From IMG/VR virus record IMGVR_UViG_3300025466_000048, positions 1 through 53,455 of that record: a stretch of DNA of 53,455 bases; one strand, given 5' to 3'. Source of the stretch: a virus (lineage: Duplodnaviria > Caudoviricetes). The translations under genes and the position numbers were made by a program. The notes beneath the pieces are model-generated. The model made no database searches. It saw nothing but the letters and a program-made list of their open reading frames with translations, and was not told where the DNA came from. This document shows, one piece after another, positions 45,776 to 50,577 of this stretch. Numbering within the stretch: position 1 is the stretch's first letter; the number at the start of each line of letters is the position of its first letter.

Positions 45776-46369
45776 ATGAAAATTTGTTCTACATGCAAGG
45801 CATCAAAGCCTTTTGAAGAGTTCTATATAAATAAAAGAACTCTTGATGGTTATTGCTATCAATGCAAAAAATGCCAAATTATTTATAACAAAAAATGGAT
45901 TGAAAAAAATCCAGAAAAAAAACAAATATATAAAGAAAAAGATATTTCAAGATTTAATGCTTGGAGCAAAAAATGGCGTGCTGAAAATCCTGAAAAAATT
46001 AAAGAGAGAGATGCAAAATATTATAAAAAAAATTCAGAAAAAATTAAAGAAAAAAAACAAATATATAGAAAAGAAAATCCTGAAATTATTTCTGTTGCAA
46101 GACACCGTTATAGAGCATTAAAACGTAATGCAAGTGGTTCTTATAACAAAGAAGACATTCAATTTTTGTTTATTGCGCAACGTGGTCTTTGTGCCATGTG
46201 TCAGGTAGACATTAAAAAACAAAAACATCATGTAGATCACATCATGCCATTAGCGCGTCAAGGAACAAATGATAAAACAAATTTGCAATTACTTTGCCCA
46301 ACATGCAATCGCAAAAAAAGTGCAAAACACCCCATAGACTTTGCCCAACAAATGGGCTTTCTTTTATAA
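45776..46369 (+). CDS. HNH endonuclease (free-standing, homing-like)
   Basis: N-terminal CxxC...CxxC; CAMC...HVDHIMPL..G.N...NLQLLCPTCNRKK; markedly AT-rich. Confidence 0.92.
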   Translation: MKICSTCKASKPFEEFYINKRTLDGYCYQCKKCQIIYNKKWIEKNPEKKQIYKEKDISRFNAWSKKWRAENPEKIKERDAKYYKKNSEKIKEKKQIYRKENPEIISVARHRYRALKRNASGSYNKEDIQFLFIAQRGLCAMCQVDIKKQKHHVDHIMPLARQGTNDKTNLQLLCPTCNRKKSAKHPIDFAQQMGFLL

Positions 46370-46383
46370 CTTTGGAGAACAAT

Positions 46384-47181
46384 ATGGCAATAAGAATGGT
46401 AAATTTGAAAGACATACGGATTGATGGAGGCACACAATTCCGTGAAGCAATTGATCAAGACTTGGTCAAAGAGTACAAAGAAGACATGCTCGGTGGAGAC
46501 GTTTTTCCTCTGATAGACTGCACATTTGATGGTTCAACTTATTGGTTGGCTCGTGGGTTTCACCGATACTTTGCCATGCAAGCTTTAGGGCTGAAACAAG
46601 TGGAGATCAACTATAAGCCTGGTACTCAAGAGGATGCCCAAGACTGGGCTTTGGGGGACAACGCTGAACATGGCTTGCGTCGCAGTCCAAAGACCAAGCG
46701 CAATCAAGTGGAGTCTGCTCTGTCCATGGAACGCCATAAGGACAAGTCTGACCGTGAAATAGCAAAACTCTGTAAGGTAAGCCACACCTTTGTGGCGTCT
46801 ATGAGAAATCCCAAGGTCAAAGAACGCCAAGCAGAAAACCAGAAAAAACACAAGGAAAGTGGCAACAACTCCACTCCTGTTGAGACTGGCAACAACTCCA
46901 CTTATGTGGAAAAACCATCCATGACTCAAGACTTTGCGCCCTCTGCGGAGGAGCTTGAGGCGAATCAATTGATGATTCAGCGCGACATGGAGGTCATGAA
47001 TAAGATTCTAGAATCTGATGATGTGATTGCTACCCTACACGCTGAAGTCAAGAGGTTAAGCGATGACAATGCAAGCTTACAGAGCCGAGTCAATGCTTTG
47101 ATGAGAGAAAAGAACAAAGCTGTGGAGTTGTTACAGAAAGCCCAACGTGAATTAGACAAACTCAAGAAAGCCAAAAAATGA
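46384..47181 (+). CDS. ParB-like protein (ParB/Srx N-domain + HTH + coiled coil)
   Basis: GGAG RBS; TQFR, FP.I, GFHRYFA, N..HG; HTH SDREIAKLCKVSHTFVASMR; C-terminal heptads. Confidence 0.8.
   Translation: MAIRMVNLKDIRIDGGTQFREAIDQDLVKEYKEDMLGGDVFPLIDCTFDGSTYWLARGFHRYFAMQALGLKQVEINYKPGTQEDAQDWALGDNAEHGLRRSPKTKRNQVESALSMERHKDKSDREIAKLCKVSHTFVASMRNPKVKERQAENQKKHKESGNNSTPVETGNNSTYVEKPSMTQDFAPSAEELEANQLMIQRDMEVMNKILESDDVIATLHAEVKRLSDDNASLQSRVNALMREKNKAVELLQKAQRELDKLKKAKK
46859..46901 (+). repeat. two 16-bp sites (46859 perfect, 46886 15/16) inside the ParB-like gene, starts 27 bp apart
   Basis: Direct read; both read as GNNST. Confidence 0.95.
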
Positions 47182-47360
47182 ACAAAATTGGTGCAATTCT
47201 TTTTTTATTTAAATGCACGTTTATTGTTGCTTTAAGAATGATTAAAGGCTTAACGTGGAACATTATTATGGTTGATCTTGAAGAAAAAAACGGAACACGA
47301 ACACAATTAACTTTTAAACGTGGTATGAAAGACTACCACTTACATGAATGGAATAGATAA
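47178..47360 (+). CDS. small hypothetical protein
   Basis: Coupled at both ends; AT-rich. Confidence 0.5.
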   Translation: MNKIGAILFLFKCTFIVALRMIKGLTWNIIMVDLEEKNGTRTQLTFKRGMKDYHLHEWNR

Positions 47361-49705
47361 TGAACCAAGTCCTAGCTCCAAGTGAGAGTGATGATGGAAC
47401 AACCTTCCCACCACCAAGACCCTTCCAAACTCAAGCCCATGAAGCACTTCGCCAAGGGTTTAAGAATGGCCACAAGAACCAAGTGATCATGGCTCCTACG
47501 GGGGCTGGGAAGACCTACCTCGGCATGCGCATCTGCAACGAAGCCATGCAAAAGGGGAAACGTGCAGTCTTCCTTTGTGATCGAACTACCCTGATTGATC
47601 AAACCTCCGATGTGGCTGAGAAATATGGCCTCAAAGATCATGGCATTATCCAAGCCAACCATTGGAGGCGTGATCCAGATCAACTCCTACAGATCGCTTC
47701 AGTTCAGACCATCGCCAAGCGTCAGTTCTGGCCAAAGATGGATGTCCTCGTGGTGGATGAGTGCTTCCCCGGCGACACATTGATTTCAACCCCTTACGGG
47801 CCAAAAGAGATACGCACACTGCATAGTGGTGGACTCATATATAATGCAATGGGCGTTGGCCGAATTGATTCCATTTTTTCCAAGCCAGCATCATCAATTT
47901 GCACTGTGAGGTTGTCCGATGGAACAAAGTTTGAATGCACGCCAGACCATCCAATATTTACCAACGTGGGATGGCGACCCGCTGGCTTCTTGGAAGTCGG
48001 TACGAGGTTATTTCGCTTTCAAGACGTGTGCGGTTTGTACAAAATCCTTCACACCAAAAATGGTGAAAGGCTACAACGGGAAACCAATGCCGCAACTAGA
48101 ATCGAACTTCAGTCAACAGAAATGCTGTGGGAAATCTTGTGCGAAGAAGTTGAAGAACCCGATGCACTCCGAAGAATCGCGCCTGAAGATGCAGAAAACA
48201 TTGAAGGCAATAAAGCATGGGCCAAAGGTACGTGGAGGCAATGGTACTGGTCTAACAAGACCACAAAGCATGGCGGTACAAGCGTTAGGCTCCCAGTGGC
48301 TTACGGAGGTCGTTATTTGCACTATGAAGTCCTCGAAGCAGGGTTATCCGCATCATTACAAAGTGGATGTGGCGAACAAGGAACTGATGATTGCAATCGA
48401 GTTGGATGGCCAGAGTCATGGCTCCTTGAAGCGCCAGTCACAGGACAGAAAAAAGGATTCTTTGCTTCGCAGCCTTGGGTGGAAAGTGTTGAGGTTGAAG
48501 AACGAGGAAGCGATGAACTTGTTTACAACCTACGGGTCTCAGGCCATCCATCATATTTTGCAAATGGCGTGCTAGTTCACAACTGCCATACCATGTACAA
48601 GGCGTGGACTGACTATGCGGTGCAAACGGGGGCTGCGGTCATTGGTCTGTCAGCAACTCCATTCTCTACTGGGATGGGAAAGATCTTCTCAAACCTCATT
48701 AACGCCACCACAATGCACGATTTGACGGTGTCAGGGGTGTTGGTACCCATGAGGATATTTTCTTGCACCAAGCCCGATATGAAGGGCGCTGAGACCGCTG
48801 GTGGGGAGTGGACAGACAAGGCGGCCGAAGAACGTGGCATGAAGATCGTGGGGGACGTGGTCACCGAATGGAGGCGTTTTGCTGAGAATCGGAAGACGAT
48901 TGTCTTTGGGGCTACGATTGCTCACTGTAAAGAGTTGGCTAAGCAGTTCATTGACCAAGGCGTGATGGCTGCTGTCTTTACCTCTGAGACCACTAAGGCT
49001 GAGCGCAAGATGCTCTTGGATGAGTATAGAAAGAATGATAGTGTTCTCAAGATTTTGATCAGCGTGGAAGCCTTAGCCAAGGGATTTGACGTGCCCGACG
49101 TAGGCTGTGTGTGTGATGCACGACCATTGAGGAAGTCATTGTCCACCGCAATCCAGATGTGGGGGCGTGGGCTGAGGTCGGCACCCAACAAGGAGGACTG
49201 TTACCTCTTAGACTTCAGTGGCAACATCATCCGCTTTGCTGAGGACTATTCGGATATTTACTTCAACGGTCTTGACGCCTTAGACGATGGCGAGAAGCTT
49301 GACAAGAAGATCAGAAAGGACGAAGACTACGAGTTGAAGGGTTGCCCTCGGTGTGGATATAAACCCTTTGCCAAGCGTTGTATGGGCTGTGGGTACGAGA
49401 AGATCAGCCAAGCAATCACGGAAACGTTGCCAGGTCACATGCAAGAGATCTTTATCGGTGAGGGGAAGAATAAGAAAAAGCTCGCGGACAACGCTCAGCA
49501 CTTGTGGCATCAAGTGGTAACCTATGCCAAGTTCCATAGTAAGCCTGAGACCCAAAAGGGTAGGGCATATCACTTGTACAAAAAGATCACTGGTCAAGAT
49601 CCTATGTGGCAATTTTCCTCAGCACCACAGGTTGAGATATCTAGAAATGTTGTGAACAAAATCACACAATTGAACATGGCCTGGCGTAAGGGGATGCAAA
49701 AATGA
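47360..49705 (+). CDS. SF2 DExH helicase (RadD/YejH-like) with intein
   Basis: APTGAGKT, DE|CH, GLSATP, KGFDVP, QMWGRGLR, CPRC..CMGC. Confidence 0.92.
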   Translation: MNQVLAPSESDDGTTFPPPRPFQTQAHEALRQGFKNGHKNQVIMAPTGAGKTYLGMRICNEAMQKGKRAVFLCDRTTLIDQTSDVAEKYGLKDHGIIQANHWRRDPDQLLQIASVQTIAKRQFWPKMDVLVVDECFPGDTLISTPYGPKEIRTLHSGGLIYNAMGVGRIDSIFSKPASSICTVRLSDGTKFECTPDHPIFTNVGWRPAGFLEVGTRLFRFQDVCGLYKILHTKNGERLQRETNAATRIELQSTEMLWEILCEEVEEPDALRRIAPEDAENIEGNKAWAKGTWRQWYWSNKTTKHGGTSVRLPVAYGGRYLHYEVLEAGLSASLQSGCGEQGTDDCNRVGWPESWLLEAPVTGQKKGFFASQPWVESVEVEERGSDELVYNLRVSGHPSYFANGVLVHNCHTMYKAWTDYAVQTGAAVIGLSATPFSTGMGKIFSNLINATTMHDLTVSGVLVPMRIFSCTKPDMKGAETAGGEWTDKAAEERGMKIVGDVVTEWRRFAENRKTIVFGATIAHCKELAKQFIDQGVMAAVFTSETTKAERKMLLDEYRKNDSVLKILISVEALAKGFDVPDVGCVCDARPLRKSLSTAIQMWGRGLRSAPNKEDCYLLDFSGNIIRFAEDYSDIYFNGLDALDDGEKLDKKIRKDEDYELKGCPRCGYKPFAKRCMGCGYEKISQAITETLPGHMQEIFIGEGKNKKKLADNAQHLWHQVVTYAKFHSKPETQKGRAYHLYKKITGQDPMWQFSSAPQVEISRNVVNKITQLNMAWRKGMQK
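47762..48583 (+). mobile_element. intein, 274 aa, in helicase Walker B
   Basis: Starts CFPGDT, block B CTPDHPIF, ends VYNLRV..HPSYFANGVLVHN, +1 Cys; splicing restores DECH. Confidence 0.93.
47919..48575 (+). CDS. Vsr/DUF559-like endonuclease overprinted in the +1 frame of the intein
   Basis: GAGG 7 nt before ATG; CAVC...CGKSC; KVDVA...IAIELDGQSH...DRKKD..L...GWKVLR. Confidence 0.82.
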   Translation: MEQSLNARQTIQYLPTWDGDPLASWKSVRGYFAFKTCAVCTKSFTPKMVKGYNGKPMPQLESNFSQQKCCGKSCAKKLKNPMHSEESRLKMQKTLKAIKHGPKVRGGNGTGLTRPQSMAVQALGSQWLTEVVICTMKSSKQGYPHHYKVDVANKELMIAIELDGQSHGSLKRQSQDRKKDSLLRSLGWKVLRLKNEEAMNLFTTYGSQAIHHILQMAC

Positions 49706-50577
49706 GCTTCATAGACTTTGCACGAGCCCATGGGGTGGAGGTCGATCCATCCCGTTTATACCCTTCCGACAAGATCAAACGCTGCGGTACCGTGGATAAG
49801 CCTAAGAGTGGCAACGGTGCTTACTTCTGGGACGGTCAGCGCGGATGGGTCTTTGACTGGTCAGGAGAGGCTAGGACGATCTGGTACGAGGATCCCCATG
49901 CCAAACCATGGACAGATCAAGAAAAGCGCCAATGGGCTTTAAAACGCCAAGTGGCGAATTCAGAGAAGGATCGAGCCTATGAGTTGGCGTCTGAAAAGGC
50001 TGACATCATTCTAAAAAGGGCTGACCTCAAAGAGCATGGTTACCTCGTAATCAAAGGCTTTCCAGAAGAGCTAGGCTTAGTCTCTGAAGATCGTCTTTTA
50101 ATCCCCATGAGGAACGTGGTCACGAATAAACTCCAAGGCTATCAGTCAATCTGGTGGAACATGGAGGAGAGGAAGTACGAGAAGAAAATGCTTTTAGGCA
50201 TGAGGGCTAAGAATGCAGTCCACCGACTAGGCTCTAAAACAGCGTCAGAGACGTGGTTGGTCGAAGGATATGCCACAGGCTTGTCCGTGTACCATGCGCT
50301 TCGTAGCATCGGTTCTGATGCGTCTGTGGTGGTTTGCTTTTCGGCATCCAATCTGGTTCAGGTTGCCGATCAGATCAAGGGGCAACGTTTTGTCTTTGCT
50401 GACAACGATGAGAGCAAGACAGGCGAGAAGTCTGCGGAGCAAACAGGACTCCCTTGGACGATGGCAGATACTGTTGGATTTGATGCCAATGATCTACACG
50501 TTAAGAGTGGATTGTTTGCTGTTGTTGGAAAAATTATGCAATTACGTAGAAAGGTGTTGACAAGCGTTGGTGCTTGA
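49702..50577 (+). CDS. Toprim-domain DNA primase
   Basis: LLIPMR, EGYATG, FADND, DAND. Confidence 0.85.
   Translation: MSFIDFARAHGVEVDPSRLYPSDKIKRCGTVDKPKSGNGAYFWDGQRGWVFDWSGEARTIWYEDPHAKPWTDQEKRQWALKRQVANSEKDRAYELASEKADIILKRADLKEHGYLVIKGFPEELGLVSEDRLLIPMRNVVTNKLQGYQSIWWNMEERKYEKKMLLGMRAKNAVHRLGSKTASETWLVEGYATGLSVYHALRSIGSDASVVVCFSASNLVQVADQIKGQRFVFADNDESKTGEKSAEQTGLPWTMADTVGFDANDLHVKSGLFAVVGKIMQLRRKVLTSVGA

What the first reader, a model, noticed from the sequence alone, without database searches (positions are those of the whole stretch)
47762..48583. Intein whose endonuclease is overprinted in another reading frame
Seen: a canonical class-1 intein splits the helicase DECH motif. Its in-frame middle (about 160 aa) shows no LAGLIDADG or HNH motif and looks like off-frame read-through. 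The +1 frame (47919..48575) is a 218-aa ORF with its own GAGG RBS, a Zn-ribbon-like CxxC..CxxxC, a NUMOD3-like stretch and a full Vsr/DUF559-like nuclease motif set. The ORF is wholly inside the intein and overlaps splicing blocks B and F/G. Established: intein homing endonucleases are normally in frame. Inference: the nuclease is translated separately or by frameshift, so homing is uncoupled from splicing, and both frames are kept stop-free over 657 nt. Alternate-frame endonucleases may already be reported in some phage elements, so novelty needs a literature check.
Basis: partly seen in the sequence, partly recalled or inferred. Interest (0 to 1): 0.8.

Follow-up and report, generated by a model that had tools for sequence, protein, structure and literature searches.

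The report
Helicase intein with overprinted +1 endonuclease
A phage helicase gene carries a self-splicing protein insert (intein) whose middle also encodes, one base out of step, a separate DNA-cutting "homing" enzyme; the double coding is real, kept by selection and still spreading, but this kind of layout has been described before.

Summary
The helicase ORF (47360..49705) is split at motif II (DE|C...HN|CH) by a 274-aa class-1 intein (47762..48583). The +1 frame holds a 218-aa ORF (47919..48575) that passes Pfam DUF559 and whose model best matches the homing endonuclease I-Bth0305I.

It is neither an error nor a relic:
- The same +1 layout occurs in 31 of 37 IMG/VR loci and 7 of 7 GenBank phage records examined.
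- The host frame has 0 stops in 35 of 35 loci, against 4.5-17.7 expected.
- Selection switches frame. In the centre, dN/dS is 0.09-0.19 in the +1 frame and 0.73-1.85 in the host frame.
- The host-frame centre is predicted disordered.
- A Shine-Dalgarno match plus ATG precedes most endonuclease ORFs, which points to separate translation.

The element is mobile. The intein is 97.6% identical between helicases only about 70% alike. Intein-free alleles 95-97% identical in the exteins exist, and both alleles occur in the same three lake metagenome runs.

Out-of-frame or antisense intein endonucleases are already in print (1998 as cited by others; preprints of 2025-26), and phage APSE-1 has an annotated +1 nested one. 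A sense-strand +1 Vsr-like endonuclease in a contiguous intein appeared in none of the texts I searched. This scan has noted the same layout before on other DNA.

The parts
47360..49705 (+). Host gene: phage superfamily-2 helicase, 781-aa precursor that includes the intein
   Evidence: ORF listed. Pfam ResIII 6.2e-17 and Helicase_C 1.4e-12; PHROG 16 'DNA helicase' 2.4e-72.
47360..47761 (+). N-extein, ending in ...VLVVDE (first half of helicase motif II)
   Evidence: Translation. Intein-free relatives read VVDEAH.
47762..48583 (+). Class-1 intein, 274 aa, read in the helicase frame
   Evidence: C1; block B T60..H63; H273-N274; +1 Cys. Pfam Intein_splicing 40.2 bits against a cut-off of 35.8. 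C1, H63, H273 and N274 are invariant in 24 homologues.
47762..48046 (+). N-terminal splicing (Hint) lobe, intein residues 1-95; block B TPDH lies at 47939..47950
   Evidence: AlphaFold2 pLDDT 89-96 for residues 1-90. dN/dS in the host frame is 0.06-0.34 before the endonuclease start.
48047..48466 (+). Host-frame spacer, intein residues about 96-235: stop-free read-through of the endonuclease gene with no domain of its own
   Evidence: Residues 132-235 have pLDDT 26-38. No Pfam hit. Host-frame dN/dS 0.73-1.85 in the centre. 0 stops against 8.8 expected.
48467..48583 (+). C-terminal splicing lobe (blocks F/G), intein residues 236-274, ending VLVHN
   Evidence: pLDDT 92. H273 and N274 invariant.
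48584..48586 (+). +1 Cys of the C-extein (the C of DECH). Intein-free alleles have Ala here (DEAH)
   Evidence: The joint shows GAC GAA GCC in the intein-free allele.
47908..47911 (+). Shine-Dalgarno-like GAGG, 7 nt upstream of the endonuclease ATG. It overlaps a +1-frame TGA at 47907..47909
   Evidence: An SD match of 4 nt or more precedes 24 of 30 endonuclease starts, against 23% of 1639 control ATGs (one of the 30, L003, was entered with a wrong coordinate).
47919..48575 (+). Endonuclease gene in the +1 frame, 218 aa plus TAG: zinc ribbon, NPM helix, GGNG, Vsr-like/DUF559 nuclease domain
   Evidence: Pfam DUF559 5.6e-11. dN/dS 0.09-0.19 in this frame. AlphaFold2 mean pLDDT 81.5. Foldseek top hit 3r3p, I-Bth0305I.
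48027..48140 (+). Zinc-ribbon-like CxxC...CxxxC of the endonuclease (C37, C40, C70, C74)
   Evidence: All four Cys are invariant in 28 sequences.
48156..48245 (+). Conserved NPM (N80-M82) with its helix, and GGNG (G106-G109): presumed DNA-binding linker modules
   Evidence: Invariant columns. Helices at residues 72-79 and 85-97 in the model. The function is inferred.
48294..48518 (+). Vsr-like / PD-(D/E)xK-type nuclease domain (endonuclease residues about 126-200), with invariant D150, E161, D163, H167, D176
   Evidence: Pfam DUF559 covers residues 126-200. Invariant columns. Profile hits to 3hrl at 1.8e-10 and 3r3p at 0.0018.

Best explanation
This is a mobile, contiguous class-1 intein inserted at helicase motif II. 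Its homing endonuclease is a separate gene overprinted in the +1 frame.

The helicase frame is translated straight through. It yields two Hint splicing lobes joined by a disordered spacer of about 140 aa. That spacer is simply the off-frame reading of the endonuclease gene. The intein then splices itself out and leaves DECH. Splicing is inferred from intact motifs and from the gene being a replication helicase.

The endonuclease has a zinc ribbon, conserved linker motifs and a Vsr-like/EDxHD-type nuclease domain. It is most likely made from the same mRNA by internal initiation at its own SD and ATG (inferred). It then cuts intein-free helicase alleles near the DEAH-coding site, and repair copies the whole intein in (inferred from population and comparative data).

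The host frame is kept open at no cost to the endonuclease protein. A host-frame stop would need a T at the third base of an endonuclease codon followed by AA, AG or GA. That T is never used.
For: **Shown**
- The junctions and splicing residues are canonical and conserved.
- The +1 ORF is a DUF559/Vsr-like nuclease.
- The identical +1 layout occurs in 31 of 37 IMG/VR loci and in 7 of 7 GenBank records examined out of 42 with hits. Some of these loci are near-duplicates.
- The host frame has 0 stops in 35 of 35 loci. Each locus has P(0)<=0.004 under synonymous shuffling.
- 0 of 1940 'risk' codons end in T, against 26.7% T elsewhere. Four in-frame or free-standing controls carry 14-20 T each in that context.
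- In the centre, dN/dS is 0.09-0.19 in the +1 frame and 0.73-1.85 in the host frame. The reverse holds in the N-terminal lobe, and both frames are constrained in the two overlaps.
- The host-frame centre has pLDDT 26-38 while both splicing lobes exceed 89.
- SD plus ATG is enriched (24 of 30 against 23% of control ATGs), and a +1-frame stop lies just upstream of the ATG.

**Mobility**
- Intein nucleotide identity between the window and L005 is 97.6%, against 71% and 67% for the exteins.
- Intein-free alleles L043 and L044 are 95-97% identical in the exteins.
- Mismatches cluster at the junction: 5 of 30 positions, against 52 of 1494 elsewhere for L043 (65 of 1494 for L044).
- Intein-plus and intein-minus contigs occur in the same three metagenome runs.

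**Exclusions**
- No Rfam intron hit was found.
Against: - No protein, ribosome-profiling or cleavage data exist. Translation of the +1 ORF, its start site, its cleavage target and splicing itself are all inferred.
- 6 of 30 endonuclease starts lack an SD match.
- The loci compared are not phylogenetically independent, so the SD statistic is inflated.
- No promoter-like site was found inside the intein. Expression must therefore depend on internal initiation on a translated mRNA, which may be inefficient.
- The match to I-Bth0305I is weak in sequence (E=0.0018; Foldseek E=2.6e-3, TM 0.61 on the target).
- In that alignment the residue opposite D163 is Asn in 3r3p.
- The RNA-library contigs over the intein do not prove transcription.
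Confidence: 0.85

Rival explanations
1. Programmed ribosomal frameshifting. Ribosomes translating the helicase shift +1 inside the N-terminal intein lobe and make an N-extein/N-intein/endonuclease fusion. There would be no independent initiation.
For: Both ORFs lie on one strand and one mRNA. No internal promoter-like site was found. In the window the endonuclease's first 35 or so residues overlap the splicing lobe and are poorly modelled (pLDDT 49-55 for residues 1-20).
Against: A +1-frame stop lies 3 codons before the ATG in the window. In several loci it directly abuts the ATG, so any shift would have to occur downstream of it. ATG plus SD is conserved. I did not look for a shared slippery motif. 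In many homologues the ATG sits 1-10 codons before the first CxxC. That fits a true N-terminus.
Confidence: 0.05
2. A decaying relic. An originally in-frame Vsr-like endonuclease domain was knocked out of frame by two compensating indels. The +1 ORF would then be a not-yet-decayed pseudogene and the intein effectively an immobile mini-intein.
For: In-frame versions of the same endonuclease architecture exist inside inteins (L037-L041: DUF559 within Intein_splicing).
Against: The +1 frame is under strong purifying selection (dN/dS 0.09-0.19) down to 58% protein identity. The catalytic and Cys residues are invariant in 28 sequences. The ORF stays open with its own start in all loci. The intein moved recently between helicases about 70% identical. 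Plus and minus alleles coexist.
Confidence: 0.03
3. Sequencing or assembly artefact. Two compensating frameshift errors put an in-frame endonuclease out of frame.
For: None was found. This is only the a priori rarity of the layout.
Against: Thirty-five independently assembled loci show the same frames. Three metagenome runs give an identical 897-nt contig with no indels. The host frame would be stop-free by chance in fewer than 1 of 1000 shuffles.
Confidence: 0.01
4. The endonuclease is a free-standing selfish gene that uses the intein only as a safe harbour. It cuts some other site, so the intein and the endonuclease do not form one homing unit.
For: It has its own SD and ATG. A free-standing relative exists (L036). 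The model of Dassa et al. 2009 (PMC2677866, passages read) has free-standing endonucleases invading inteins.
Against: The block of high identity ends exactly at the intein borders. The plus and minus alleles differ by the whole intein plus a few flanking bases. The endonuclease is never seen moving without the intein in the 31 loci. The same intein/endonuclease pairing is found at three insertion contexts (DE|CH, DEAH|C, terminase).
Confidence: 0.06

Closest known systems
Non-canonical actinobacteriophage inteins (Gosselin, Arsenault & Gogarten, bioRxiv 10.1101/2025.01.02.630785; abstract and sections 8 and 15 read, supplements not seen)
   Same: The intein is contiguous, with intact splicing lobes in the host frame. 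The homing endonuclease is a separate ORF that overlaps the intein's middle. The proposed origin is invasion of an intein by a free-standing endonuclease. There is evidence of continued horizontal transfer.
   Different: Their layouts are antisense LAGLIDADG, antisense VSR-like, and a frame-3 endonuclease VII-like gene. Their hosts are DNA polymerase, minor capsid, terminase and thymidylate synthase. Here a Vsr-like endonuclease lies on the sense strand in frame +1. It is mostly in helicase motif II, in phages of Vibrio, Pseudomonas and Corynebacterium and in uncultured freshwater phages.
Cyanobacterial dnaX intein with an out-of-frame LAGLIDADG endonuclease (Phillips, DeSimone & Gogarten, bioRxiv 10.64898/2026.09.14.751524, abstract and section 17 read; Gorbalenya 1998 known only as cited there)
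   Same: The endonuclease ORF overlaps a contiguous intein. dN/dS is low in the endonuclease frame and raised in the host frame across the overlap. Intein-plus and intein-free alleles coexist in populations.
   Different: That case has a +2 ORF, a LAGLIDADG nuclease and a cellular (cyanobacterial) host gene.
Fractured genes (Dassa, London, Stoddard, Schueler-Furman & Pietrokovski 2009, PMC2677866; passages read)
   Same: The endonuclease family is the same (Vsr-like). The genes are phage DNA-metabolism genes, including helicases. The endonuclease has its own translation signals, and its 3' end overlaps the C-intein coding region.
   Different: There the host gene is broken into two ORFs with a split intein, and overlaps are only 6-69 bp. 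Here the host frame is continuous (0 stops) and the overlap is the whole 657-nt ORF. That paper states that Vsr-like endonucleases were not then known in inteins.
I-Bth0305I, prototype of the EDxHD homing endonucleases (Taylor et al. 2011, PMC3239194, passages read; PDB 3R3P)
   Same: It has a Vsr-like nuclease fold and is the best structural match to the +1 product. The architecture is bipartite, with N-terminal DNA-binding modules and a C-terminal nuclease.
   Different: I-Bth0305I is encoded in a group I intron of recA. Its N-terminal region has two NUMOD2-like repeats, whereas this protein has a CxxC...CxxxC zinc ribbon plus NPM and GGNG motifs. Sequence similarity is weak (E=0.0018 with a profile).
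Phage APSE-1 DNA polymerase P45 intein with nested ORF P46 (NC_000935; a record, not a paper)
   Same: The intein is contiguous (..GGKS|CLAKGT...LIVHN|CEN..). A separately annotated endonuclease CDS lies on the same strand in the +1 frame.
   Different: P46 is annotated as an HNH endonuclease (141 aa) and is not a Vsr-like/DUF559 protein. The host gene is a DNA polymerase. I tested no homology to the window's endonuclease beyond its absence from the tblastn hits.

Membership tests
Class-1 intein (Hint/intein splicing domain) | N-terminal nucleophile Cys/Ser at position 1 | tested here: met
   C1 at 47762..47764, invariant in 24 of 24 aligned inteins.
Class-1 intein (Hint/intein splicing domain) | Block B TxxH | tested here: met
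   T60-P-D-H63. H63 is invariant and T60 is conserved in at least 90% of sequences.
Class-1 intein (Hint/intein splicing domain) | C-terminal His-Asn followed by a +1 Cys/Ser/Thr | tested here: met
   VLVHN|C. H273 and N274 are invariant, and the +1 residue is Cys in all loci with a mapped junction.
Class-1 intein (Hint/intein splicing domain) | Profile match above the curated threshold | tested here: met
   Pfam Intein_splicing: 40.2 bits for the intein alone and 36.8 for the whole protein, against a cut-off of 35.8.
Class-1 intein (Hint/intein splicing domain) | Protein splicing activity | not testable with these tools
   Inferred only, from intact motifs, confident Hint lobes (pLDDT above 89) and the likely importance of a replication helicase.
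DUF559 / Vsr-like endonuclease (Pfam PF04480) | Profile match above the gathering score | tested here: met
   42.7 bits against a cut-off of 20.6, E=5.6e-11, residues 126-200. The profile also hits PDB 3hrl at 1.8e-10.
EDxHD homing endonucleases (I-Bth0305I family) | Vsr-like nuclease fold | tested here: met
   Foldseek top hits are 3r3p chains B and A: probability 1.00, TM 0.61-0.62 on the target, E=2.6e-3. The model has mean pLDDT 81.5.
EDxHD homing endonucleases (I-Bth0305I family) | Conserved catalytic residues forming the composite EDxHD motif | tested here: inconclusive
   D150, E161, D163, H167 and D176 are invariant in 28 sequences. I did not map them residue by residue onto the published motif. 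In the HMMER alignment, 3r3p has Asn opposite D163.
EDxHD homing endonucleases (I-Bth0305I family) | N-terminal NUMOD-type DNA-binding modules | tested here: inconclusive
   There is no Pfam NUMOD hit at E<=1. A zinc ribbon plus an NPM helix is present instead. The 'NUMOD3-like' label rests on recall only.
EDxHD homing endonucleases (I-Bth0305I family) | Site-specific cleavage of the element-free allele | not testable with these tools
   Indirect evidence only: a sharp identity break at the intein borders and coexisting plus and minus alleles.
Fractured gene / split intein (Dassa et al. 2009) | Host gene broken into two ORFs, each carrying one intein half | tested here: not met
   The host frame is continuous over 781 aa, with 0 stops across the endonuclease gene.
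Non-canonical intein with an overlapping, separately encoded homing endonuclease | Endonuclease ORF in another frame or strand inside a contiguous intein, under purifying selection in its own frame | tested here: met

The most novel reading that the evidence does not exclude
The +1 Vsr-like endonuclease/intein pair may not be a short-lived intermediate between a 'mini-intein invaded by a free-standing endonuclease' and a fused or split intein. It may instead be one old, stable and very widespread lineage of phage inteins, largely unannotated.

Two features could make the dual coding self-stabilising. First, the host frame can be kept open purely by the endonuclease's wobble choice (never NNT before AA, AG or GA). 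Second, any indel breaks both products.

Internal initiation on a heavily translated helicase mRNA would then act as a built-in throttle on endonuclease dosage. The lineage has also switched exteins: two helicase sites and the terminase.
Probability: 0.45. Interest if true: 0.5.

Novelty: new variant of a known kind. Interest (0 to 1): 0.4.

Why it matters
Three things follow from this case.

1. **Annotation.** Gene callers miss the nested ORF. None of the 7 GenBank records examined annotates it. In the protein collection it turns up mostly on contigs of about 1-3 kb, with a few longer. Many phage "mini-inteins with a long linker" may therefore be fully armed mobile elements.

2. **A natural example of the invasion step.** In the model where free-standing endonucleases invade inteins, the next steps are fusion in frame or splitting of the gene. 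Free-standing, overprinted and in-frame forms of one endonuclease architecture are all on hand for comparison here.

3. **A cheap route to a 657-nt dual-coding stretch.** The stretch is maintained by a single wobble rule. The case also comes with a matched natural pair of intein-plus and intein-minus alleles in the same lake samples. That pair would make homing, splicing and internal initiation directly testable.

The general phenomenon is already described, so the value is incremental.

Tried and rejected
- **Group I/II intron or other RNA element.** The Rfam E-value scan of 47300..49000 gave 0 hits.
- **Internal promoter or terminator.** No sigma-70-like or terminator-like site was found in 47300..48800. 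This scan has weak power.
- **RNA hairpin sequestering the endonuclease RBS** (as reported for other phage endonuclease genes). The -45..+25 region was folded in 22 loci. The mean z was +0.26, so there is no excess structure.
- **PDB search with the single sequence.** It gave only spurious repeat-protein hits. The profile search was informative.
- **Representative bacterial and archaeal genomes.** Alignment A2 was too divergent for pattern building (error). With A1, 92 pattern matches were found but none was confirmed by tblastn. The patterns were narrow, so this does not show absence from cellular genomes.
- **Other copies in the window.** tblastn of the endonuclease and the intein against the window found only themselves.
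- **RNA-library run X20.** Three 151-nt contigs lie inside the intein. DNA carry-over cannot be excluded, so this is not counted as evidence of transcription.
- **Gorbalenya 1998 (PMC147447).** The paper is not held. It is cited here only as others cite it.
- **Supplementary tables of the 2025 preprint.** These could not be seen and might list sense-strand Vsr-like cases.
- **SD count.** One entry (L003) used a wrong start coordinate. Without it the count is 23 of 29.
Full report
**1. What is in the sequence**

The window carries a 781-aa ORF at 47360..49705. It has ResIII and Helicase_C domains and a strong PHROG 'DNA helicase' match.

Its motif II is interrupted...VLVVDE|CFPGDTLIS...GVLVHN|CHTMYKAW.... 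The 274-aa insert at 47762..48583 has every hallmark of a class-1 intein:
- Cys1.
- Block B T60-x-x-H63.
- His273-Asn274.
- A +1 Cys.

On its own the insert passes Pfam Intein_splicing (40.2 bits against a cut-off of 35.8). The closest annotated relative is MW202545, at 73% nucleotide identity. It has an uninterrupted VVDEAHTTYKAW.

The +1 frame holds a 218-aa ORF at 47919..48575. It sits behind GAGG-N7-ATG and directly after a +1-frame TGA. It passes Pfam DUF559 (E=5.6e-11, 42.7 bits against a cut-off of 20.6). The host-frame middle of the intein matches no domain. Only the 'NUMOD3-like' label could not be confirmed.

**2. It is not chance, an error or a relic**

*Conservation of the layout.*
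- tblastn of the +1 protein against GenBank phages found 42 records. Most of those listed lie under CDSs annotated as helicases.
- In all 7 records I examined, the match is at +1 relative to the annotated helicase CDS. These are Vibrio phages CP-T1, 104E43.1, 159E43-1b, 1.088.O and 1.194.O, Pseudomonas phage MR14 and Corynebacterium phage phi673.
- In all 7 the helicase CDS reads through without a stop and the intein junctions are canonical. None annotates the nested ORF.
- A pattern scan of IMG/VR returned 37 loci. In 31 of them the endonuclease frame is +1 inside a continuous host ORF of 670-1321 aa. One is a free-standing 218-aa ORF. Five carry a distant relative in frame within an intein of another phage protein.
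- Some of the 31 are near-duplicates.
- Most hosts are helicases cut at DE|CH. Three are cut after DEAH, and L025, L026 and L031 are terminase large subunits.

*Openness of the host frame.*
- Across 35 loci the host frame has 0 stops over the endonuclease ORF.
- Synonymous-codon shuffles give means of 4.5-17.7 stops, and at most 4 of 1000 shuffles were stop-free per locus.
- The third frame has 8-46 stops.
- The mechanism is visible. A host-frame stop needs an endonuclease codon ending in T followed by a codon starting AA, AG or GA.
- 0 of 1940 such codons end in T, against 26.7% T in other contexts. Four in-frame or free-standing controls have 14-20 T each in that context.
- Keeping the host frame open therefore costs the endonuclease no amino-acid change.

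*Selection in each frame.* The six closest inteins (window, L005-L009) are all exactly 822 nt and align without gaps. Results:

| Intein region (nt) | Host-frame dN/dS | +1-frame dN/dS | Where differences fall |
|---|---|---|---|
| Before the endonuclease start (0-156) | 0.06-0.34 | mostly above 1 (0.84-3.36) | host codon position 3 |
| Centre (270-726) | 0.73-1.85 | 0.09-0.19 | host codon position 1 (= endonuclease position 3) |
| Two terminal overlaps (156-270, 726-822) | below 1 | below 1 in all pairs but one (L008-L009 in 726-822: 1.93) | mixed |

In the two terminal overlaps the endonuclease ORF runs over block B and blocks F/G.

*Structure.*
- The host-frame intein model has two confident Hint lobes (residues 1-95 and 236-274, pLDDT about 89-96).
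- These are joined by a segment with pLDDT 26-38 (residues 132-235).
- The +1 protein folds confidently (mean pLDDT 81.5).
- Its best PDB matches are the catalytic domain of the homing endonuclease I-Bth0305I (3r3p: probability 1.00, TM 0.61 on the target) and the DUF559 protein 3hrl.
- A 28-sequence profile hits 3hrl at 1.8e-10 and 3r3p at 0.0018.
- Invariant residues are C37, C40, C70 and C74 (zinc ribbon), N80-P81-M82, G106-G109, and D150, E161, D163, H167, D176.

*Sequence accuracy.* Three freshwater metagenome runs each contain an 897-nt contig covering 47719..48615 with 0 differences and no indels.

**3. It is mobile now**

- Between the window and L005 the intein is 97.6% identical in DNA, while the flanking exteins are 71% and 67% identical.
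- The same contrast holds for L006 and L007 against the window (89-91% against 71-76%), and for L006 against L007 (95% against 72%).
- Identity falls off within 30 nt of each border.
- A search with the C-extein found two IMG/VR contigs (L043, L044) whose exteins are 95-97% identical to the window's but which lack the intein. They read GTGGTGGACGAA|GCCCAT, which encodes DEAH.
- The window differs from them at 5 of the 30 positions around the insertion point, against 52 of 1494 (L043) and 65 of 1494 (L044) elsewhere. At those positions it carries GATGAG|TGC, the same as the intein-bearing L005. This looks like a short co-conversion tract.
- In the three metagenome runs that hold the intein allele, a second contig joins 47757 to 48586 with CGAAGC between. 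That is exactly the intein-free DEAH allele. Its contig depth is of the same order: 13 against 26, 108 against 193, and 8.3 against 9.7. Contig depths are rough, and the runs may belong to one campaign.
- A second plus/minus pair exists (L047 against L008/L048).

**4. How it most likely works**

- *Shown:* a contiguous intein with intact splicing lobes; a nested +1 gene under purifying selection; joint movement of the two as one block bounded by the intein ends.
- *Inferred:* the helicase precursor is translated through the spacer and splices to give DECH.
- *Inferred:* the endonuclease is initiated internally at its own SD and ATG. An SD match of 4 nt or more precedes 24 of 30 endonuclease starts, against 23% of 1639 control ATGs in the same ORFs. 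One of the 30 was entered with a wrong coordinate, and the loci are not independent.
- *Inferred:* the endonuclease cuts the DEAH allele near the insertion site.
- The +1-frame stop just before the ATG, which directly abuts it in several loci, argues against an upstream frameshift fusion.
- No Rfam intron, no promoter- or terminator-like site and no conserved hairpin at the RBS were found.

**5. Comparison with what is known**

Overlapping intein endonucleases are in print:
- The 2025 actinophage survey reports antisense LAGLIDADG, antisense VSR-like and frame-3 endonuclease VII-like genes in full inteins. It attributes the first such observation to Gorbalenya 1998.
- The 2026 dnaX preprint reports a +2 LAGLIDADG ORF with the same frame-dependent dN/dS pattern and coexisting alleles.
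- An out-of-frame HNH insert that is not an intein is described in a phage methylase.
- The APSE-1 RefSeq record annotates a +1 nested 'HNH endonuclease' inside the DNA polymerase intein.
- Vsr-like endonucleases were first tied to inteins only as free-standing genes between split-intein halves, with overlaps of 6-69 bp. They were stated not to be known in inteins. I-Bth0305I is the characterised prototype.

In six literature searches I found no text describing a sense-strand +1 Vsr-like endonuclease overprinted in a contiguous intein.

This scan's own notes list the same layout in at least 28 other genomes. One of those notes supplied the APSE-1 lead, which I checked.

**6. Verdict**

The observation and the interpretation are both right, and the evidence for dual coding and for current mobility is strong. 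The kind of element is known. This is a further architecture of it (sense +1, Vsr-like). It seems common in phages and is almost never annotated. Interest is moderate.

Noticed in passing
window 45776..46369 (+): A free-standing HNH endonuclease gene (197 aa; Pfam HNH 3.5e-13) lies just upstream of the helicase module. Its 3' end overlaps the next ORF (46294..47181) by 76 nt. It is a second candidate mobile nuclease in the same replication cluster.
   Followed up: partly
window 46294..47181 (+): This 295-aa ORF sits where the relative MW202545 annotates a 'parB-like nuclease domain' protein, yet it gave no Pfam hit at E<=0.001. The listed TTG start is probably too far upstream.
   Followed up: no
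window 49702..50577 (+): A Toprim_3-domain primase-like gene starts with ATGA overlapping the helicase stop. The order ParB-like, helicase, primase is shared with MW202545 and Acidovorax phage AP1.
   Followed up: partly
L045, L046, L049 (IMG/VR): These intein-free helicase alleles already read DECH rather than DEAH at the insertion site. They could be natural Cys variants, or footprints of precise intein loss that kept the +1 Cys.
   Followed up: no
L037-L041 (IMG/VR): The same endonuclease architecture (zinc ribbon, KKKNPM, DUF559) occurs in frame inside an intein of a large phage protein, with junctions ...PLHPR|CF... and ...VVHN|CRC.... In-frame Vsr-like intein endonucleases therefore exist as well.
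   Followed up: partly
L025, L026, L031 (IMG/VR): The +1 endonuclease/intein pair also sits in a terminase large subunit (ICW|CF...VHN|CEEAQ; Pfam Terminase_3 1.4e-33). This points to extein switching between ATPase genes.
   Followed up: partly
window 47762..48583 and L005-L009: All six inteins of this subgroup are exactly 822 nt with no indels, even at 58% endonuclease identity. Most relatives in the protein collection are exactly 218 aa. Length seems frozen, as expected if any indel damages both products.
   Followed up: partly
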